Positions 10,701-63,833 of a stretch of 64,000 bases of DNA are shown in pieces. The notes below the pieces were generated by a model. The model worked only from the letters and a program-made list of their open reading frames with translations, did no database searches and was not told where the DNA came from. Numbering within the stretch: position 1 is the first letter of the stretch; every line of letters begins with the position of its first letter. Source of the DNA: Squalus acanthias (taxonomy: Eukaryota); NCBI GenBank assembly GCA_030390025.1, contig CM059432.1:30010001-30074000 (forward strand), written 5' to 3'. A program made the translations under genes and the position numbers.

Positions 10701-10912
10701 CTTGTTTTTGTAAAAATGTCTGTCAATAGACAAGTGATCCTACTGGAGTACCTGATAACCTTTTGAAGACCTCTACTGATCGCTGTTTATAGGTAGATGT
10801 AAAGCAGGCATGTGCTCAGAAATAAAACAGCTCTTCACCTGGGCCACTGATTGTAAATGCAGGATTGCAATTAATGGGCTGTAGTTAATTAGTGCTGGGT
10901 GGTGGGGAAAGA

Positions 10913-11345
10913 GAAACATAGAAACATAGAATCTAGGAGCAGGAGTAGGCCATTCGGCCCATCGAGCCTGCTCCACCATTCAATACGATCATGGCTGATC
11001 ATCCAAATCCAGTACCCTGTCCCTGCTTTAATCCCCACAGTACACATATCCCACCCTACCCCCGTAACCCCACGTATTTAATTCCCCCTAACATATCCCA
11101 TCCTATCCCCATAACCCCACATATTTAATCCCCCCCTAACACTAAGGGTCAATTTATCATAGCCAAATCAACCTAACCCGCACATTTTTGGACTGTGGGA
11201 GGAAACCGGAGCACCCGGAGGAAACCCACGCAGACACGGGGAGAATGTGCAAACTCCACACAGACAGTCACCCGAGGTCAGATTCGAAGCCGGGTCTCTG
11301 GCGCTGTGAGGCACCAGTGCTAACCACTATGCCACCGTGTTGCCC
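10913..11345 (-). mobile_element. HE1-type V-SINE, full length, young
   Basis: tRNA-like head, V-domain (gtttgcacattctccccgtgtctgcgtgggtttcctccgg), CR1/HER1-derived tail with (tttctatg)n, probable TSD aaaga; nearly identical to 54295-54728. Confidence 0.9.
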
Positions 11346-12341
11346 AAAGATGAACAAAGATGAGGGGGAAGAGAGAGCAACAAAGATGAGGGGTTAAGAA
11401 GAACAAAGATAAGGAAAAAGATTGGAGTGACTGATCTTTTCTAGTTTAATATTTTTAAAGAGACCCCCCTCCATTAGAATTTTGTAGTACAGTGGTATTC
11501 TCCCAGGTGGTTCATTTAAGATTTAAAGTGTGGTAAACCTTTTATGTATAATCCCAGGAGTTTACCTATAAAAAGCAACAACTTGAAGAGGTGGGGGAAT
11601 AAACCAATGCACAAGGAGTTCATCAATAATCCTGATCCATGTCCTTTGGGGAAAAACACGTCAACTAAAAGAGCACCTGAAAATAAGCTGCATGTGAACT
11701 TTTTTCTAAAAAAGGGCCATTATTGACATATTGAGGAGTTTTCAGACAGGCAAAGATCTTGAGAAGTTAGAAACGCCTGCACAGTTCTGAAAAAAGCATA
11801 CAAGCACTGCTGTGATGGTTACCAGGGCAAATGTTAGCCACAGTGGAAATTGAACACGCTGCATTGTAAACATCTAAATTTTTACAATACTCCAACAACA
11901 CAGTTTCTAAAGAATACAAAAGAGCAATGCAGCGAAGCCATGGTCTTTGAAACGGGGAAGCAGAGGTAAGGGCTATATTTCAGCACGCCACCAAGGCTGA
12001 AAAAGGGTAGGAGATAAGATAATGTTAATTAAGAAGTAGTGGTTTGGTGATGACAAACATTAGTTTTAAATCGCTTTCGATTGTAGGAGGAAGGTAACAT
12101 GTGCTGCAGGTTTTTATGCATCACTAAATATCATTGCATGCTTATATATGTATAGACTCTGCAGTGATTTAGAGAAGATTTACAAGGTGACCCAGCCTCT
12201 TTAAAAAAGCATACCTATTCATGTGACACTAGAAGCTAACCAAAGCAATTGTAATCTAAAACCAGGGGATTAACCCTTTAAATGGAGGATTGAAACCTCA
12301 CTGAAACAAATAACCACATTAGTCAAATAGTATTTTCTCCT

Positions 12342-12479
12342 AAAATAACAGAAAATGCTGGAAACACTCAGCAGGCCAGGCAGCATCCGTGGAGAGAGAA
12401 ACAGAGTTAACGTTTCAGGTCTGTGACCCTTCGTCAATTATTTCAGATTTCCAGCATCCGCAGTACTTTGCTATTGTAT
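12342..12479. mobile_element. Minimal Penelope-like insertion: inverted pLTR piece plus 3' tail
   Basis: Homologous to 44342-44947; flanked by degenerate direct repeat tagtattttctcct / tagtatttttttcct. Confidence 0.7.
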
Positions 12480-24050: not shown

Positions 24051-24219
24051 TCCTGAGTATAAATGATTCAAACTTGCACAGAACTTCAGGTCTATTTAAT
24101 TAGTAATTAATATAAATTTGAAATTTAGTGCAGGAGTTAAGTATTAGAACCTAAGAAAGGACAAGGTCAAGAAAAGGCAGTGTAATATCCAAGCTGATCC
24201 CTCTCCTACTCTAATATAA

Positions 24220-24360
24220 TAACAGAAAATGCTGGAAATACTCAGCAGGTCAGGCAGCATCTGTGGAGAGAGAAACAGAGTTCATGTTTCAGGTCGATGA
24301 CCTTTCGTCAGAACTGGAAAAAGTTAGAGATGTAACAGGTTTTAAGCAAGTACAGAGGCA
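24220..24360 (-). mobile_element. Penelope-like pLTR fragment with mutated hammerhead core
   Basis: aacagaaaatgctggaaatactcagcaggtcaggcagcatc...tttcaggtcgatgacctttcgtcag. Confidence 0.75.
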
Positions 24361-39244: not shown

Positions 39245-39410
39245 CTTGAGCTGGAGCTGAAGTTGTTGACCTTCCTGGTCTTCCAGGAGACACTGTATGA
39301 GGCTGCTGGCAAAGAACTATTCCAGCCTGCATTTTTCTTCACTATTTTATACCTCGTATTGATTAATTGGTTGTTTGAAGGGCTCTTCGCAGAGAACGAG
39401 GAACTTAAAC
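39245..39410 (-). CDS. zc3h3: Internal coding exon of ZC3H3 (CCCH zinc finger protein 3), 166 bp, phase 1 to phase 2
   Basis: Acceptor tttttgatgtttgtgcag| and donor |gtaatc. Encodes (G)LSSSFSAKSPSNNQLINTRYKIVKKNAGWNSSLPAASYSVSWKTRKVNNFSSSS(R). This resembles my recollection of human ZC3H3 '...VIKTRYRIVKK...SWRARRLSLSR'. It splices in frame to the exon at 1-18. Confidence 0.85.
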
Positions 39411-41680: not shown

Positions 41681-43649
41681 TGTTGAGTGAGGACAGGATT
41701 GGGCTTGATGGTGATACCCCATACCATCAGGATTTATAAATGAATAACCACTCGAATGAGGTACTGGAGGAGACTGGCTCCTGTGGAATTGCAGCTGAGC
41801 AATAAATCAACACCTCCAGGAATAGGGAAGGGAGAAAATTTGCCAAGAAAACAATTTCCTGATAGCTGCTCATCTTACTATGATAATTTGGCACCCTCAG
41901 TATCTGGCTGGGTTAAGTACTATGAAGGGCCAGTACTTGCTTGGTTAGGCTTGTCTAAAGCCCGTCATTAGAAATTGAATGTTCCATTAAAAGCACTTGT
42001 ACATATGGTTAAGGTGTAAGCCTGGGGAATGCCACTTTCCTATATTTGGTACCAGCCTCCGTATGGGACAGCTCTGGAATCAGAAACCAGCTTAATTGTG
42101 TATACTTCAGCGGGCAGTACCGTTCTGTAGACTGCGTGCGCACAAATTACCGGCACTGTGGCATTCGTAACTGACACCAGAATACAAGCGCTCTCAATCT
42201 GACTCAGAACATTTACTGGGTCATCCAAGGAGCTCCAGAAACGGACGGCAACAGGTGACCTAGCAAAAACCGAGTCTCTACCGACGCTAGATCTGGGAAG
42301 ACTGGGGAGTTTACCTTCAGTAGTGGCGCTGGTGGAGCGGGATCTGCTCGTTGGCAATGACTAGCTCAGTGCAAGAGAACCTCAATGTGACAATTATTGT
42401 TTATAAAAGGCTCCAATTCCGCAGTGGCACATATCACTCTAACCAAGCACTCACATTTTTATTACCAACAACATTCTGAGCTCCCCTGTTATCAGCCAAC
42501 AACACACCACAAGCCACCGAGGTCAAGGCTAATGACTAATCGATCTCATTAGATTCCCCTAATTAAGAACATTATTGTAGCAAGAGTGGAAGAGCAATAC
42601 CGTGCTAGTGTTATTTGAACATGTTATGAACACTATTCATCATGACGAAAAAAAAGATCTGTGGTCCATAAGTGGGCAAGAGAAAAACTGCTGAAACCGC
42701 ACATTGAGAGCAGTATCCAACCCACAGGCTGTTGCTTATAAAGCTGCACTGCTGTCATCACCAGACTGACGCGGCCCTCGTGACTCTGACAGATGCATAC
42801 AGAAAGTTCAGCTAAATAATCACCACCCCGGATAGGGGATTAAGCATCCAATGGTCCAAGCTCTGTGGTCCTTTGCTCTCTGGGGCCCCGAATGACATGA
42901 TCCATCCAAATTATTCACCATTTGAATGAGAGTTAAAAATTATGGAGCTAGAAGCAAGATGGAAGGCAGAAGGAACTTTTTCACCCAAGTACATTTGTCG
43001 AATATAGTGGCAGGTAAAGCCACTGAAGCAGACATAAATAAAGAAAGATGATCAAGAGGCAATTAGGTCTGTTTTGGAGAAACAGTGATTGAAAGATACA
43101 GTGGGTAGCTGGGGTTGAGTGCTATCAAAAGGGGACAAGTTTATTCTGCCTAGGGGCCTTTTCCTATTCCTAAAAACGTTTGTACTCTAAATCCACGGGA
43201 AATGCAACGTAATTGTGCCTTTTTCAAATTGCAGGAAAAATTTAACTGATCTGCTTACAATAATAACAAATACAGATCTAAAGCACAGATAAACGAAGAG
43301 AAAGAATACAGGGTAATTTATTGAAATATTAAAATGGAAGTAGGGAGAGAGAGGGAAGAACAAGGATTAGAGTATACTGCCTAGACAGCATAAAGCCTTT
43401 TGCCATTCGACTGAAGGGATGAGAGTCTTCTCCGCCTGAAAGGGTGCTTTGCGAAATTACTTTGCTCAGTCTCAACCCATTTCCTCAGGGGCAAGGGTTT
43501 ACAGCACAAAACTGTTCACAATTTGGCATCCTCACTCAGACAGGCCGATGGAACGGTCACATTCCACAGTTACTGTAAGCAGATCAATTCGGTTTTCCTG
43601 CAGTTTGAAAAAGCCTCAATTATGCTGCATTTCTCGTGGATTTGGTATA

Positions 43650-44341
43650 TAAGTATTTTTAGGAATAGGAAATAGCCACTAGGTCTAACAAACCTGTCTC
43701 TTTCTGAAGTTGAGGGGGGTAAAGCACATTATTGAGGTAGAGGAAAACAAGAGCTATACGCTGCACACACACTATGGCTTTACTGTCCTTTCTGTTCAAA
43801 GCTGCATGCAGTACTTAACTGTGGCATAACCAATGTTTTGTATAAATTCATAATTACTTCTTTACTCTTGTACTCTATGCGCCAATTTATAAAACCCGAA
43901 ATGCCATTGGCCTTTTAATGGTTTTATCTACCTGTAGGGAATTATGTACTTGAACCCCTAGGTCTCTGTGTTTATCCACATCCTCCAGTGCCTTTACATT
44001 AAGTGTATACTCCCATTATTTGTTTTGCTCCTAAAATGTAACACCTCACACTTATCCACATTAAATTACAAGTGGATAAGCGTGAGGCAATACATCTTGG
44101 GGGACACCGACCGGTCTGCCCATTCTACTAACCTATTTGTCTTCCAGAAGTTTTTTTTACAGTCCTCCTCACTGTTTACCAAACCTCCTACTTTGTGTCA
44201 TTAAGAAATTTCAAGATTGTGCTCCCTATATCCAACCATGAAACATCTAAATATACCATGAACAAAAGTGGACCAGGCACTAAGCCCTGGGGTAAAATAT
44301 TCATCCAGTCCAAGCTATACCCATTTACCATAATTCTTTAC
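43650..44341 (-). mobile_element. Old CR1 remnant (host of the Penelope-like insertion)
   Basis: Degenerate RT-region sequence; 3' end is an inverted match to about 43130-43180. Confidence 0.5.
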
Positions 44342-44441
44342 AATAGCAAAATACTGCGGATGCTGAAATCCGAAATAACAACAGAAAACGCTGGAAAAAC
44401 TCAGCAGGCCAGGCAGCATCCGTGGAGAGAGAGAGAAACAG

Positions 44442-44478
44442 AGTTAACGTTTCAGGTCGAAGACCTTTCGTCAGAACT
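44442..44478 (-). ncRNA. Minimal type I hammerhead ribozyme motif (host sense strand)
   Basis: AGUU-CUGACGA-A-AGGUC-uuc-GACCU-GAAAC-GUU-AACU. Confidence 0.7.
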
Positions 44479-44848
44479 GGAAAAAAGCAGGAAATGGAAT
44501 AGATTTTAAAGCAAGTTTAGGGGCTGGGAAAAGGGGGAGGGGATGAAAGAACAAAAGGGAAGGTCAGTGATAGGATAGAAAGCAGGAGAGATTAAGAGAC
44601 ATTGAGAGACATTAAGAGATATTCAAGGCAAGAGGAGGTGGTAATGGGACAGGTTAAGGAACAAAGGATGGCTCTAGATGAAGTGTGAATTGGGCTGGCA
44701 GAATGAAGGACAGCTGCCAGCTTCTGGGAGGGAAGACAAAAAGGGCCAAACAAAAAGTGTGGATAAAAAAAAATGTTCTTTCATCCCCTCCCCCTTTTCC
44801 CAGCCCCTAAACTTGCTTTAAAATCTATTCCATTTCCTGCTTTTTTCC

Positions 44849-44885
44849 AGTTCTGACGAAAGGTCTTCGACCTGAAACGTTAACT
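44849..44885 (+). ncRNA. Minimal type I hammerhead ribozyme motif
   Basis: agtt ctgacga a aggtc ttc gacct gaaac gtt aact: CUGAnGA and GAAA cores, stem II, stem I AGUU/AACU, palindromic AACGUU. Confidence 0.7.
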
Positions 44886-45029
44886 CTGTTTCTCTCTCCA
44901 CGGATGCTGCCTGGCCTGCTGAGCTTTTCCAGCGTTTTCTGTTGTTGTTTACCATAATTCTTTACTCGTTGTTTGTCAACCAATACCAATGCTGCTACAT
45001 TTCCTCTTGCATCATATGCTGAAGTTTTA

Positions 45030-45465
45030 TCAGCCTTGGTTCAGGGTTAACACTCTTGCCGCGGAGTCAGAAGGTTGTGGGTTCAAGTCCCACTCTAAAG
45101 ATGAGCACATAACCTAGGCTAGCACTACAGCTCAGCATTGAGGGAGTGCTGCACTATCGGAGGTGCCGTCTTTGAGATGAGACGTTAAACCGAGGTTCCG
45201 TCTGCCCTCACAAGCGAATGTAAAAGATCCCATGGCACTATTCTACTGGTGTCCTGGCCAATATTTATCCCTCAACCAATATCACTGAAACAGCTCATCT
45301 GGCCATTTATTTCATTGCTGTTTCTGGAACCTTGCAGTGTGTAAATTGGCTGCCACATTTCCTAGATTACAACAGCGACTACTCTTCAAACGTACTTTAT
45401 TAGTTGTGAAGTGCTTTTGGACATCCTGAAGTCGTGAAAATATATAAATGCAATTTCTTTCTTTA
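45030..45465 (+). mobile_element. Deu-domain tRNA SINE (SacSINE1-like), near full length
   Basis: A/B-box head (ggttcaagtccc), Deu core, L2-like tail. Confidence 0.85.
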
Positions 45466-50780: not shown

Positions 50781-51055
50781 AAAGGGGGAGGGAATGAAAG
50801 AACAAAAGGGAAGGTCAGTGGTAGGATAGAAGGCAGGAGAGATTAAGAGACATTAAGAGATAATCAAGGCAAGAGGAGGTGGTAATGTGACAGGTTGAGG
50901 CTAGATGAAGTGTGAAATGCGCTGGCAGAATGAAGGACAGCTACCAGCTTCTGGGAGGGAAGAAAAAAAGGCCCAACAAAAGGGTGGATGAAAAAATAAA
51001 AGAATATATATATGTGTGATAGGGGCCGGGGTTATGATCTGAAATTGTTGAACTC
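50781..51055 (-). mobile_element. Penelope-like fragment: ORF end plus 3' region
   Basis: Matches 44530-44770 and extends into ...EFNNFRS*, which I recognise as a typical fish/shark PLE ORF terminus. Confidence 0.7.
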
Positions 51056-52742
51056 TAAGACTTTTGAGCAGTGGTAATACGAATAAAGTTTCACGCAACA
51101 GACTTGTAGAGAGACTCTCCTCCCTGAGAGGAGATACTCTGCATTCTCTTGAAAAAGCAGACTGTTGGAGAGGTTGATACAGTAGTGTATCAGATAGCTC
51201 CATCTTCGGATGGCTGCCATTGAAGGGGCTGAAATGGACATCCTGCTTGGTCCTGGATGGTAATCCGGCCATCCTTGGATACACCTTAAAAAGTTCACCA
51301 CCCGTCGAGGCTCAAATACCACCAAATGTTGAATGCTTTAATTGCATTCAGGAGCTGAGGCCTTCGTGTGATGCTGTGAATACACGGTTCCCTATACAGC
51401 CTCAGAGCAGCCTACCCAATAATAAATGGAAAAAAAGTAGTTATTCCACTTTGTAAAAATTCCAACTCAGTAGCCCCCTATTGGATGGCATTCTACCTGT
51501 ACAATGAGTGTGTCCTCACCTAATATCCACACATGCATATATTTCCAGTGTGAATTACCATGTAGTGATCAGCAGTAGGAATTCCATGGATACCGTATCT
51601 TGCTGTAAAGCCCATGGCTCATTAAGATCAGAACACAGATTCAAGCTGGGATCTCCCTGGTTGGCATGGCTCAATGTCAGATCAGATTTCACATTTTATA
51701 CAATTCAATTAAGTGTATAAAGAACTCTGCGCTGCACAATATTCACTGGGATCAAAGACAGGTGGAGAGGTTACTCTTGACCTAAGCTTTAGGGTTAACA
51801 CCAGGGCAGGAGGAACTAATGCTCCACAGCTTTCTTTCCTTGTTGTGGAAGAACCCTCTGTTTTCCCACGGACAATATGTCAGTATGGGAACAACTACCC
51901 CTCCACCCCCCCCCCCAGCAATCCTACCTCCCTTTCACATGGCACAACATGCCAAGAGTTCTAGTGCCCCATGTAAATTTATCATTTTTGTTATTGCTTT
52001 GATTTGGTCCAGAAGTGTCACCATGTTCTTATAGTGAAACAACTTGACATGCAGCTTCCCATATGCCACCTTCTAGTGCTTAAGTTCTTCATGTGTATGG
52101 GATCCGATTCATTTTTTGTCAATCAACCAATGCCCACAGAGACTAATTAAATGAGTTTGCAGCTGTTTTGGAAAGTGTTTTTTGTTGGTCACAAAAGTTA
52201 ACGTGTGCTGTCTGTGTTCCCTCCCTCCTAATCCTGAAACATTAGTAGACTCTGCTCAGCGTCTCTAGTCAAAGATGAATCGGATCCCATACCCATGAAG
52301 AGCTTCAACACTGGACGCTTGCTATTCTGGCAGAGTGGAAAAGTTCACACACAAAGATTCATCAGAGTTATTCACTGATTGTACTTGGACCACCCTCTGG
52401 GAAGGCATCTTATTACCAGCCACAAATAGAGACATAAGAACCTAAGAATTAGAAGCATGAGTAGACCATACGGCCCCGAGATGGTCACATCAGGAAGGCT
52501 GCCACGGAGGTTAGATACCCTGCATTAAGCATGCAGAAGAAGAATAGACTGATCTGTGCTGCATTTTATGGAGCTGCATACTGTTAAATAAACAGCAATT
52601 GACTTAAGTTCGGAGACCCAGATTAGGAGATCTTCATGGAGCTGGGACACTGATGTTACATTTCAATCAGATCACAATTGAATACAATGGAAATGCATAT
52701 TGGCACAACCGTGCTTAAGTTGGGCGATGCTACGCTTTTAAT

Positions 52743-52996: not shown

Positions 52997-53413
52997 ATTA
53001 TAAAAATTTGTGCTCAAAAGTGCCGTCCGGTCCAACTCTCAGCCCTGAGTATTACCACGAAGTTCCAAACCTTCACTATTTTTTTGCTTTCTTAAAGGAT
53101 AGTCCCACTCATCAGAATAAGTCAGTAATTTAATCTAGTTGTTGAAAATGAAAAAGTACAAGCCTCCTTTTTGATCAGGTTGCTGGGCTTTCAGGGAACA
53201 GTGGCCGCATTCTCAGAGTTACGAAGCAATGGCAAATGGCCGTCACATAGTACCGCAGCACATAAGTTCAACAAACAGCCTCAATAAGTGGATGTAAACC
53301 TGCCAAACAGCACAATGCCAGTGAATGGGTGATAACTTTGCTGATGAGGAGGTAGCACTCTGCTTTTGGGGGGGGGAAGAAGGGGGCTATTTCTAGGGTA
53401 CTTCACTTGTAAC

Positions 53414-53536
53414 GATAGCAAAATACTGCGGATGCTGGAAATCCGAAATAACCAACAGAAAACGCTGGAAAAACTCAGCAGGCCAGGCAACATCCGTGGA
53501 GAGAGAAAGAGAGTTAACGCTTCAGGTCGATGACCT
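53414..53536 (-). mobile_element. Penelope-like pLTR 3' end (hammerhead truncated)
   Basis: Near-identical to 44342-44467. Confidence 0.8.
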
Positions 53537-54294
53537 TATCTGTGCTTACATTTGAAATAAAACATAACCGACCAAAGTATGTTTGAAGAACATTCCAATA
53601 CACAGAAAATAGAACGGACCTCTGGCACCTCTTAGAAATAAGCAACATTCCATGTGGGTGGGGTGGGAAGGAGTGGCAGAGAATGTTCCTTAAACCCAAT
53701 TTACAACTGGTTTGATGCAACTGCTCAGAAGTGTTCAGGTCACTATGCGAGTTTTTCCCCTGTTCAGCTCCCCTTCCCCCGCTTCAAGGCTGCTCACAAT
53801 CCACTTTTACTTTTTATATTAGTAAACATTTGAAACAAGAAAATACAACACTTTGGCGAGTAAGGCAGCAGGATTAGTTTTTGGATTGCTGTAGCACAGA
53901 GCCACTTGCATGCAAAGGATGGGCCGAATGGCATCCCTCTGTGCTGTAAACTTCTATGGTTAAAAGAAATGCTCTCCATTGCTTTCCAACCTTCTTTCCT
54001 GAACATACACTGCAGCTGTGCTGTTGTGCTTGGGGCATTCCCTCATGGGAGGGTAGATTTCAGCTTATAATAGTCCAATTTCTGGTAATCAGGGTGTTAA
54101 AGAGCCTCATCGTTTCCTTATGCACAATCCTGCCTCACGTGTGCATCGAGGCTGCACGTAGAAACACACACACACACACGCAGCTAAATCCCCAAACTGC
54201 AACTTGCTCCACCAGACATGACACATTCACATCAAACTTGATAAACCCTCAACCTCAATAAGCAAAATCAGCACAGTCACAAGTGCTCAGATTA

Positions 54295-54728
54295 TAGAAA
54301 CATAGAAACATAGAATCTAGGAGCAGGAGTAGGCCATTCGGCCCATCAAGCCTGCTCCGCCATTCAATACGATCATGGCTGATCATCCAAATCCAGTACC
54401 CTGTCCCTGCTTTAATCCCCACAGTACACATATCCCACCCTACCCCCGTAACCCCACGTATTTAATTCCCCCTAACATATCCCATCCTATCCCCATAACC
54501 CCACATATTTAATCCCCCCTAACACTAAGGGTTAATTTATCATAGCCAAATCAACCTAACCCACACATTTTTGGACTGTGGGAGGAAACCGGAGCACCCG
54601 GAGGAAACCCACGCAGACACGGGGAGAATGTGCAAACTCCACACAGACAGTCACCCGAGGTCAGATTCGAACCCGGGTCTCTGGCGCTGTGAGGCACCAG
54701 TGCTAACCACTATGCCACCGTGTTGCCC
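54295..54728 (-). mobile_element. HE1-type V-SINE, full length, young
   Basis: Nearly identical to 10913-11345. Confidence 0.9.
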
Positions 54729-55338
54729 AATAGGCAGAACTTCCTTTGGAGTCATTCACATCGATAGGCAGCAGGCTTTTTCCCCATTACCTCTTCACTC
54801 AGAAAATTTACTTACACTCTTTCCTTGCCTTTGGGAAAAAAAAGCGGTGATGAAGTTTACTGAATTAGTCCTCATTTATCTATAGATCCATATAAAGGTT
54901 TTGAGAGGGTCAGTCACAATTCAGATGTCACACTTCAATATGTCAAAAGTGTACAGAAAAGGGCATACTGAGAGCAGTTACAGTCCAAGTTCTGTTGGTA
55001 AAGGAATCGGCGGATGGATTTGAATCTTGCAATTTAAAAGCATCTAGCAATCTGTAAATTTCCCTCACTAACAGCAATGAACTTGTAACTGATCTAATAA
55101 CTACTTCACCGCACTCAATGGCCACATGTGGACCATGACGATAGATCGGACACCGCTGGTTTAAGGCTATAATCTGGCAGCACCGTCTCAGTTGCACTTA
55201 TATCCCTTTTTTTTTACTAGTTTGCCCTGGTTGAACTTTCTGGAGCTTTGGAAAGAGCTGATCTTAATACTTCAGAATACCAAGATCTGTTAGCAGCAGC
55301 AGTTTGAGTTATAATGTGAACAAGGGTTTAAACTTCAT

Positions 55339-56016
55339 GGCCTAAAAATTCGGTTGCTTTGCGCCGCCCGTTAGCACCGAGAGGGCGCTAAAGGGGCGCC
55401 AAGCAACTAGCGCCCGGGCGCGGCGCCACCAACGCCTCCTGCGAAATTCAGCGGGAGGTTAGCGGCGGCGGTAACCGTTAGCGCCCCGCAGTGCTGTGCC
55501 GCCGGCGATGACGTCATCGCCGTGCGCAGCGCCCTGGCTGCGATCTTCGGTAGCGCCCCCTGACTTACCGCCGGACACTATGTCCGACGGAGTCAAGGGG
55601 GGGCCTACCTGCGGCCGGGGCGGCGCTAATTAAAGGCGAGGTGCCGGGCGGCCATTTTTGTTGCTGGCCGCCTGCCAGCACCTGCCCCCATTGCCGTCCC
55701 CGGCCACCTTACCCACCCCCCCTGCCGAGTGCCGGCTGCGTTCCATGAGCCCGGCACTTCTCTTGAGTGCCGGGCTCTTTTGCTGGCACTCCGATCCCTG
55801 GTGGCCCAGCTGGGCCCCGGGTCGCGCTGCGCAAGGCCCCTCCCCTTTAAGAAGGGGAAGAAGGTCTGCAGTACTGCGGCGCAGCGCCCCAAGAGGGAGG
55901 CGGGGCGCTTCCAGTAGAGCCCCGCTACCGATGAATTTCGGCTGTCGGGGCGCTAATTTTTTCGGGGCGCTTGGCGAAGTTAGCGCCCCAAAGGTGGCGC
56001 GACTCAATTTTTCCCC
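55339..56016. mobile_element. CpG-rich MITE, young
   Basis: Ends ggcctaaaaatt / aatttttcccc; repeated tagcgccc motifs; paralogous to 63075-63833. Confidence 0.85.
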
Positions 56017-63074: not shown

Positions 63075-63833
63075 GGGGGGAAAAGTTCAGTTGGTTTGCA
63101 CCTCCCGTTAGTGCCTTAAGAGGGCGCTAATGGGGCGCAAAGCAACTAGCGCCCGGGTGCGGCGCTGCTCGCGAAATTCAGCAGGAGGTTAGCGGCGGTG
63201 CTAACCGGTAGTGCCGTGGCGCTGCGCCGCCGGCGATGACGTCATCGCCGAGCACAGTGCCCCGCTCACGCTCCTGCCTCGATCTTCGGTAGCGCCCCAT
63301 GACTTAGCGCCGGACACTATGTCCGACGGAGTCAGGGGGGCCTACCTGCGGCCGGGGCGGCGCTAGTTAAAGGGGAGGTGGCGGGCGGCCATTTTTGTTG
63401 CTGGCCGCCTGCCAGCACCTGCTCCCTTTGCTGTCCCCGCCCCCCGTGAAGCCCCCCCCGCCCCCCGCGAAGTGCCGGCTGCACTCCAAGAGCCCGGCAC
63501 TTCTTGAGTGCCGGGCTCTTTTGCCGGCACTCCCGATCCCCGGGGGCCCAGCTGGGCCCCGGTTCGCGCTGCACAAGGCCCCTCCCCCTTTAAGAAGGGA
63601 GGAAGGCCTGCAATATCGCGTTGCGACGTGCCACAGCGCCTGGCGCTGCAGCACGTAGCGCCATGATATTGACTCGCAGCGCCCCAAGAGGGATGCGGGG
63701 CGCTTCCAGTAGCGCCCCGCCTCCCTCTTGGGGCGTAACCACTCAATTTCCGGCGCGGGGGCGCTAATTTTTATGGGGCGCTAAACCCGGCGAAGTTAGC
63801 GCCCCAAAGGGGGCGCGATGCAATTTTTCCCCC
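63075..63833. mobile_element. CpG-rich MITE inserted in a Deu-SINE
   Basis: TSD TTG/TTG splitting the SINE motif gagacttgagc; ends ggggggaaaagtt / aatttttccccc. Confidence 0.85.

What the first reader, a model, noticed from the sequence alone, without database searches (positions are those of the whole stretch)
44324..44965. Hammerhead-bearing Penelope-like hairpin element inside the ZC3H3 pre-mRNA
Seen: a 606-bp insert with an 18-bp TSD and two nearly identical inverted arms of about 175 bp. One arm has an extra tail of about 35 nt. Each arm holds an intact minimal hammerhead core (CUGACGA, stem II AGGUC/GACCU, GAAAC, palindromic AACGUU, stem I AGUU/AACU). Established: Penelope-like elements have inverted pLTRs and carry minimal hammerheads thought to cleave as dimers through a palindromic stem III. 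Inference: a ribozyme sits on both strands, so host transcription produces an RNA that could either fold the ribozyme or zip into a long dsRNA that masks it. That would be a self-limiting cleavage switch in an intron.
Basis: partly seen in the sequence, partly recalled or inferred. Interest (0 to 1): 0.72.

Follow-up and report, generated by a model that had tools for sequence, protein, structure and literature searches.

The report
Head-to-head Penelope stub in shark intron
This is a recent, non-coding, back-to-back double copy of a very common shark jumping gene's end, sitting in a ZC3H3 intron; its two hammerhead-ribozyme motifs are real but predicted to be locked in a long hairpin, so it is likely ordinary transposon debris of a published kind, not a regulatory switch.

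Summary
In detail: a 606-bp insert, an exact 18-bp target duplication, 181/177-nt inverted arms (2 substitutions, one 4-nt indel), a 31-nt tail (not 35) and a minimal hammerhead on each strand. ZC3H3 is confirmed on the minus strand, with an exon 4.9 kb downstream. One related species has the empty site directly and two more by inference, so the insertion is young. The layout is published for Penelope-like elements: inverted pLTR, optional 31-bp tail, TSD, and paired minimal hammerheads on opposite strands. The 'switch' is not supported. Either transcript holds only one sense ribozyme, so no cis dimer can form. Its perfect complement is always transcribed first. The ribozyme stems have predicted pairing probability below 1e-15 (about 64 kcal/mol penalty), and the active fold is only about 0.2% even in isolation. 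Likely origin: both target strands were nicked and each primed reverse transcription at one of the element's two start sites. Not tested: cleavage, editing, transcription of this copy, and a link to an RT/GIY-YIG ORF. The scan found this same kind of insert before elsewhere in this genome (e1-9826309, e1-9837849, e1-9969201). Interest 0.12.

The parts
44324..44341 (.). Left target-site duplication (18 bp). Its last 3 letters also match the family's 3' end, so the nick stagger is 12-18 bp
   Evidence: an X17 contig of another copy follows the element out to 44339 (table 7)
44342..44372 (-). 31-nt PLE 'tail': element 3' end, inferred outer reverse-transcription start
   Evidence: the same tail is in copies at 12437-12478 and 53412-53442
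44373..44553 (-). Left arm: pLTR part of the longer (about 430-nt) 5'-truncated copy, sense on the ZC3H3 strand
44442..44478 (-). Minimal type I hammerhead, sense in the ZC3H3 pre-mRNA; predicted scissile bond between 44446 and 44445
44504..44509 (-). TATA-like TTAAAA at -31..-26 from the first base of stem I (promoter role untested)
   Evidence: mirror of the right-arm site measured; this stretch of the arms is identical
44554..44773 (-). Unpaired 220-nt spacer = further upstream family sequence. It aligns with the copy at 50781-51005, which runs on to a stop codon after EFNNFRS (recalled as a PLE ORF end)
44774..44947 (+). Right arm: shorter tail-less inverted copy, joined head-to-head at 44773/44774 (at most 1-nt overlap)
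44818..44823 (+). TATA-like TTAAAA at -31..-26 from stem I; at -30..-25 in the 24-kb copy despite a diverged spacer
44849..44885 (+). Minimal type I hammerhead: stem I 4 bp, CUGACGA, extra A, stem II 5 bp with A10.1-U11.1, GAAA, ACGU palindrome, U17; predicted cut between 44881 and 44882
44948..44965 (.). Right target-site duplication; its first 3 letters also continue the arm
43798..44341 (-). Decayed LINE reverse-transcriptase fragment that is the insertion target (CR1-type by recall)
   Evidence: tblastx against the window's own LINE frames, E 3e-15, matches at 43798-44255; the broken frame runs across the site. Pfam found no family in the two query frames
39245..39410 (-). ZC3H3 coding exon (166 nt, AG..GT; from aa 621 of the 1025-aa shark homolog P0001)

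Best explanation
The insert is a young, non-coding, head-to-head pair of 5'-truncated 3' ends of an abundant shark repeat that is very likely a Penelope-like retroelement; it was likely made by reverse transcription primed from both nicked target strands, and its hammerheads are predicted to be masked in the ZC3H3 pre-mRNA. Shown: TSD, arms, tail, ribozyme motifs, host exon, and the empty site in a relative. Inferred mechanism: the element's endonuclease nicks the two strands 12-18 bp apart. The top-strand end pairs 3 nt with the RNA at the tail end and is extended about 430 nt. The bottom-strand end pairs 3 nt at the second start site 31 nt further in and is extended about 175 nt. The two cDNAs are joined at their truncation points, and repair fills the duplication. 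Predicted consequence: transcription from outside in either direction makes the antisense arm first, then zips a roughly 175-bp duplex over the ribozyme, so no cleavage and no switch. At most it is a passive intronic double-stranded RNA.
For: Both junctions read from flank into the antisense of the element's 3' end, at two points 31 nt apart, each with a 3-nt match to the TSD end. The copy at 12344-12478 has the same layout (tail-less inverted arm plus tail, imperfect TSD), and the copy at 24216 starts at the same tail-less point. In three other species, 141-394 contigs per listed row leave the element at 44372-44374 into long unrelated flanks (table 7; 24 of 3,310 rows shown). Both arms share the same minority letters (44461/44866: the other letter holds 77-85% of depth in all four runs; table 3), as expected for one template or one source locus. 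Empty site: organism B contig 18 joins 44161-44284 to 44948-45044 with 30 letters between (direct). Organisms C and D show a single contig depth on both flanks (inferred). Flanks differ by 4-5% (tables 3, 8). Folding: stem pair probabilities 1e-43 to 1e-16; penalty 63.6 kcal/mol; freeing only the ACGU palindrome costs 12.1; the active dimer scores -9.7 against -22.9 for the free dimer. Literature: 31-bp tail, inverted pLTR and TSD (PMC3846280; PMC8557442); two RT starts equal the tail and both strands are cut and extended (PMC11167929); dual minimal hammerheads 100-700 bp apart on opposite strands, monomer inactive (PMC4209133).
Against: No RT or GIY-YIG ORF could be tied to this family with tools: the pLTR-frame protein search found nothing, two metagenome scans gave 0 hits, and no genome is held. 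PLE identity therefore rests on architecture, the ribozyme and a recalled 7-residue ORF end. The priming mechanism is inferred from one locus plus one similar copy; Arkhipova et al. prefer self-priming on an antisense template for head-to-head inserts. Folding is equilibrium nearest-neighbour prediction without proteins, editing or tertiary contacts, and the PAc ribozyme is protein-assisted. The arms differ at 2 sites plus an indel, so they are not exact copies. The empty site is shown directly in only 1 of the 3 other species laid.
Confidence: 0.82

Rival explanations
1. Same Penelope-type insert, but the inverted arm arose by self-priming or template switching in one cDNA (for example on an antisense template), with the tail left by endonuclease resolution, rather than by priming from both nicks.
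For: Proposed for head-to-head PLE inserts in PMC3846280 and PMC8557442 (passages). Shared minority letters in both arms fit one template.
Against: I see no clear palindrome at the 44773/44774 junction. Both outer ends fall on the family's two fixed end points with 3-nt matches to the target. PAc cuts and extends both strands in vitro.
Confidence: 0.1
2. Divergent promoter cassette: each arm keeps a TATA-like box and initiator at the ribozyme's first base, so the insert would fire two outward transcripts (one antisense to ZC3H3) that start with an unmasked hammerhead.
For: TTAAAA at -31/-30 is kept in two diverged copies. 51 and 78 contigs of other copies stop at 44849/44850 (table 7). In such transcripts stem II forms (P 0.93-1.0). 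A pLTR TATA/Inr is described in Adineta.
Against: Stem I stays at P<=0.005 and there is no dimer partner. No transcript of this copy was seen. This would be a property of every copy of the family, not of this locus.
Confidence: 0.05
3. One reading: the pre-mRNA alternates between an active ribozyme and a masking duplex and so limits ZC3H3 expression.
For: The core is intact on the host strand; without the upstream arm, stem II forms at P about 0.77. Intronic hammerheads with host roles are mentioned for amniotes (PMC7229834 passage).
Against: The antisense arm is made first; 64 kcal/mol penalty; single sense copy; stem I at P about 0.02 even without the arm; insert absent in relatives.
Confidence: 0.02
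4. A MITE or fold-back DNA transposon with long terminal inverted repeats.
For: Long inverted arms with a TSD.
Against: The arms are asymmetric (tail on one side). The inner ends vary among copies while the outer ends are fixed. Solo single-arm copies occur at 24216 and 53412, and the spacer is family sequence in its own right.
Confidence: 0.01

Closest known systems
Inverted-pLTR insertions of endonuclease-bearing Penelope-like elements (Adineta vaga Pen2a/Pen2, PMC3846280; general scheme in PMC8557442; passages read)
   Same: Inverted 5'-truncated copy next to a direct copy, 31-bp tail on one end only, whole unit within one TSD, arm about 180 bp, TATA-like motif in the pLTR.
   Different: No ORF left here; TSD 18 bp (12-bp core) versus 8-10 bp reported there; no clear palindrome at the inversion junction.
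Minimal type I hammerheads of metazoan PLEs (Cervera and de la Pena 2014, PMC4209133; parts 1-2 of 4 read)
   Same: Short stem I, extra nucleotide between 9 and 10.1, palindromic 15.2-16.2 with no loop 3, and pairs on opposite strands 100-700 bp apart (375 nt between the two ribozymes here).
   Different: A10.1-U11.1 rather than the highly conserved G10.1-C11.1; stem II is 5 bp, against 7-8 bp in Schistosoma; activity untested here.
Poseidon PLE of Anolis carolinensis, PAc (Frangieh et al. 2024, PMC11167929; parts 1-2 of 4 read)
   Same: Two fixed element ends one tail apart; AT-rich target; both strands apparently primed.
   Different: Clade not determined here. PAc's ORF starts in stem II, whereas no ORF start could be shown here.
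Non-LTR retrozymes (bioRxiv 10.64898/2026.07.22.740005, parts 1-2 of 5; PMC7229834, passages)
   Same: Non-coding, PLE-related, type I hammerhead.
   Different: Retrozymes are head-to-tail tandems with two or more same-sense ribozymes; this insert is head-to-head with one per strand.

Membership tests
EN+ Penelope-like element (insertion remnant) | Direct or inverted pLTR arrangement with a 5'-truncated inverted copy | tested here: met
EN+ Penelope-like element (insertion remnant) | 30-40-bp tail on one end only | tested here: met
   31 nt, 44342-44372; same two end points in window copies and in contigs of 3 other species
EN+ Penelope-like element (insertion remnant) | Hammerhead in the pLTR | tested here: met
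EN+ Penelope-like element (insertion remnant) | TSD with an empty orthologous site | tested here: met
   (direct in organism B, inferred in C and D)
EN+ Penelope-like element (insertion remnant) | Family encodes telomerase-like RT plus GIY-YIG endonuclease | tested here: inconclusive
   No ORF in the insert; only a 7-residue putative ORF end at about 51035-51058 (identity recalled); searches were empty; no genome held
EN+ Penelope-like element (insertion remnant) | Clade (Penelope/Poseidon, Neptune, Nematis) by RT phylogeny | not testable with these tools
   no RT sequence obtained
Minimal type I hammerhead ribozyme | CUGAnGA, GAAA, UH triplet, stems I and II, palindromic 15.2-16.2 | tested here: met
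   descriptor scan: 2 hits versus 0 in 200 simulations
Minimal type I hammerhead ribozyme | G10.1-C11.1 pair | tested here: not met
   A-U pair here; G-U in the 12-kb copy. Still a standard pair; PMC4209133 calls G-C highly conserved, not obligatory
Minimal type I hammerhead ribozyme | Self-cleavage as dimer or with protein | not testable with these tools
   only energies: active dimer -9.7 vs free dimer -22.9 kcal/mol
Minimal type I hammerhead ribozyme | Core more conserved than flanks across genomic copies | tested here: inconclusive
   None of the 40 variant rows shown (57 hidden) lies in the core and the main ribozyme variant is in loop II. Of the 3 other ribozyme-bearing window copies, 1 keeps both boxes and 0 pass the full descriptor
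Non-LTR retrozyme | Head-to-tail tandem with at least two same-sense hammerheads | tested here: not met
   one hammerhead per strand
Host-co-opted intronic ribozyme | Conserved at the orthologous site in related species | tested here: not met
   empty site in relatives with flanks 4-5% diverged

The most novel reading that the evidence does not exclude
Head-to-head Penelope stubs act as small divergent promoter cassettes plus intronic dsRNA. Each arm's TATA/initiator would start an outward transcript with an unmasked 5' hammerhead, one of them antisense to ZC3H3. The read-through pre-mRNA would carry a 175-bp perfect duplex that is edited or diced and measurably changes ZC3H3 output in this lineage. 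Because such stubs are very common, they would be a genome-wide source of lineage-specific regulation in sharks.
Probability: 0.05. Interest if true: 0.5.

Novelty: new member of a known kind. Interest (0 to 1): 0.12.

Why it matters
As a locus it matters little: it is one of five pieces of this family in 64 kb, and the scan has already reported the same kind of insert several times in this genome. Its modest value is as a clean, dated example for the still unresolved PLE integration mechanism. It has an empty site in a relative, both ends on the two known RT start points, and 3-nt primer-template matches on both sides, which fits priming from both nicks. If the unlikely regulatory case were true, young PLE palindromes would be a route to lineage-specific control of host genes.

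Tried and rejected
Rfam scan: no hammerhead model matched at E<=10; this says nothing against a minimal variant. No whole genome is held, so copy number and core-versus-flank conservation could not be computed. Two metagenome pattern scans for longer family members gave 0 loci. A protein search with the 42-codon frame across the pLTR ATG and tail gave 3 candidates, none at E<=1, so an ORF start in the pLTR is not shown. Pfam found no family in the two LINE frames used as queries; 'CR1' is a recalled label. Two organism-A runs guessed to be RNA (X17, X18) cover the family but not the unique flanks; they are contigs, so they say nothing on editing, strand or transcription of this copy. Polymorphism in organism A is unresolved: no 44341-44966 joint among the 15 of 80 joints shown for X1/X3, and X5 (55% read) has no cover at 44239-44246. 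X1 and X3 contigs reach only 21 letters past the left junction, under the tool's 31-letter rule, and may be the source sample, so they are not independent support. Summed contig depths were not used as copy numbers. TSD search with at most 1 mismatch found none for the copies at 24k, 50k and 53k, and an 11-nt imperfect one for 12k. No AATAAA or ATTAAA in the insert on the host strand. Lunse et al. 2016 (PMC5785218) is not held; its dimer result is taken from a review passage (PMC6765202). Literature searches (listings only unless stated) showed no title on shark PLE hammerheads or on such a switch; subscription papers, Repbase/Dfam entries and supplements were not seen and may describe this family. 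MITE, retrozyme and co-opted-ribozyme readings were rejected as given above.

Full report
1. Observation. The sequence is as described. An exact 18-bp duplication (44324-44341, 44948-44965) brackets 606 bp; chance is about 3e-8. The arms, 44373-44553 and 44774-44950, differ by two substitutions and a 4-nt (AG)n indel, with 220 nt between them. The extra tail is 31 nt (44342-44372). An identical 37-nt minimal type I hammerhead lies at 44849-44885 (+) and 44478-44442 (-). My descriptor finds only these two in the window and none in 200 first-order Markov simulations. Rfam gives no hammerhead hit.

2. Host gene and target. A minus-strand exon at 39410-39245 has AG and GT ends. It matches ZC3H3 of sharks and rays: 11 significant hits of 21 candidates, 10 of them named, the best 96% identical. 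It begins at aa 621 of the 1025-aa homolog, and no other exon scored in the window. The element is therefore inferred to be in the preceding intron, 4,914 nt upstream. The target is a decayed LINE RT fragment (tblastx E 3e-15; broken frame across the site).

3. Family. Four other pieces occur in the window: 12344-12478, 24216-24359, 50781-51058 and 53412-53537. The 12-kb copy repeats the layout in miniature: a tail-less inverted arm joined to the tail, with an imperfect TSD. The 24-kb copy starts at the tail-less point, and the 53-kb copy has the tail. The 50-kb copy covers the spacer and continues to EFNNFRS-stop, which I recall as the end of fish and shark PLE ORFs; this was not verified (empty). 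Laying four DNA-type runs gave 29,644-81,665 contigs on the stretch at 88% likeness. In organisms B, C and D, 141-394 contigs per listed row leave the element at 44372-44374 into unrelated flank, and 51-78 contigs stop at 44849-44850 (24 of 3,310 rows shown).

4. Age. Organism B contig 18 joins 44161-44284 to 44948-45044 with 30 letters between, so the insert is absent there. For organisms C and D, one contig depth (6.9 and 7.82) appears on both flanks, but the second piece is not listed, so absence is inferred. Flanks differ by 4-5%. Two of those three species come from one study. Presence or absence in other individuals of organism A is unresolved.

5. How it was likely made. At each junction the strand that runs from flank into insert reads the antisense of the element's 3' end, as a target-primed cDNA would. 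The left one starts at the tail end and the right one 31 nt inside. The terminal 3 letters of the TSD match the family sequence on both sides, so the nicks are either 18 bp apart with 3-nt priming matches or 12 bp apart with templated ends; the sequence cannot tell these apart. Both arms carry the same minority letters. The anole PLE protein cuts and extends both strands and starts at two sites that define the tail (PMC11167929). I therefore infer priming from both nicks and head-to-head joining of two truncated cDNAs. The reading was sharpened by unreviewed scan notes e1-8610579 and e1-8597828, which are leads rather than support. The rival is self-priming on an antisense template (PMC3846280).

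6. Does it switch? It is predicted not to. Minimal PLE hammerheads are inactive as monomers and weak as dimers (PMC4209133; review PMC6765202), and the PAc ribozyme needs its protein and had no RNA-seq ends at its cut site. Each strand here offers one sense ribozyme. Its complement is transcribed first in either direction, and the arm duplex is the minimum-energy fold from about 44519, some 40 nt before the ribozyme begins. Stem pair probabilities are 1e-43 to 1e-16; forcing the active fold costs 63.6 kcal/mol, stem II alone 24.4, and freeing the palindrome 12.1. In isolation the active monomer fold has P 0.002 or less, and the active dimer (-9.7) is 13 kcal/mol above the free dimer (-22.9). 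These are equilibrium predictions without proteins or editing. The one escape is initiation inside the arm: a TTAAAA box lies at -31 (at -30 in the 24-kb copy) from the stem I A (lead from e1-8639351). Such transcripts lack the antisense arm, but stem I still has P<=0.005, and cutting them would not cut the pre-mRNA. No transcript of this copy was seen; the two RNA-guess runs cover only the family.

7. Comparison with what is known. Arkhipova et al. describe inverted pLTRs, an optional 31-bp tail and a TSD (PMC3846280, passages). Craig et al. give the same as the general EN+ PLE scheme (PMC8557442, passages; author name recalled). Cervera and de la Pena report dual minimal hammerheads 100-700 bp apart on opposite strands (PMC4209133). 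It is not a retrozyme, which needs same-sense tandems (bioRxiv 10.64898/2026.07.22.740005); in that study about 43% of Xenopus retrozyme copies lie in introns, so an intronic position is unremarkable. It works like, and on four structural criteria belongs with, EN+ PLE insertion remnants; the protein criterion is untested. Five literature searches listed no paper on shark PLE hammerheads or on this switch; repeat databases and supplements were not seen.

8. Verdict. A real feature and a new member of a known kind, found repeatedly by this scan in the same genome. Interest 0.12. The boldest open reading, divergent promoters plus an edited or diced intronic duplex that affects ZC3H3, has probability about 0.05 and interest 0.5 if true.

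Noticed in passing
window 12344-12478: Miniature version of the same layout: 93-nt tail-less inverted arm joined directly to the roughly 40-nt tail, imperfect TSD; ribozyme truncated at C3, with G-U at 10.1-11.1 and a different loop II.
   Followed up: partly
window 50781-51058: Family copy with neither ribozyme nor tail, covering the spacer and running to a stop codon after EFNNFRS (recalled PLE ORF end); no TSD found.
   Followed up: partly
window 24216-24359 and 53412-53537: Solo single-arm copies. The first is tail-less, keeps both core boxes but has a broken stem III palindrome; the second has the tail and is truncated inside the core with GAAG for GAAA.
   Followed up: partly
window 44503-44477 (minus strand): A pyrimidine run ending in CAG falls exactly on the first two bases of stem I on the host strand: a possible cryptic 3' splice site. 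PMC4209133 reports that the D. virilis Penelope intron ends at the 5' end of helix I. Not scored or tested.
   Followed up: no
window 43125-43263 and 43570-43707: Older inverted repeat, 139 nt at 78% identity with about 300 nt between, 600 nt from the finding; unrelated sequence, no hammerhead core found. A second potential dsRNA in the same intron.
   Followed up: partly
window 44030-44101: Hairpin with 30-nt arms (80%) inside the decayed LINE fragment; weak, below-threshold Rfam miRNA hits; covered by contigs of relatives.
   Followed up: no
window 10912-11347 and 54296-54730: Two 436-nt LINE 3'-end copies at 98.6% identity that end within a few bases of each other: a young LINE subfamily with a shared truncation point or a recent duplication.
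   Followed up: no
window 55344-56016 and 63081-63832: Two copies of a GC-rich repeat of about 700 nt (76% identity), not identified.
   Followed up: no
tables 5c and 7, around 44866: Contigs of organisms B and D show sister ribozyme variants with other letters at N7 and a G at 10.1 while the core boxes are kept.
   Followed up: no
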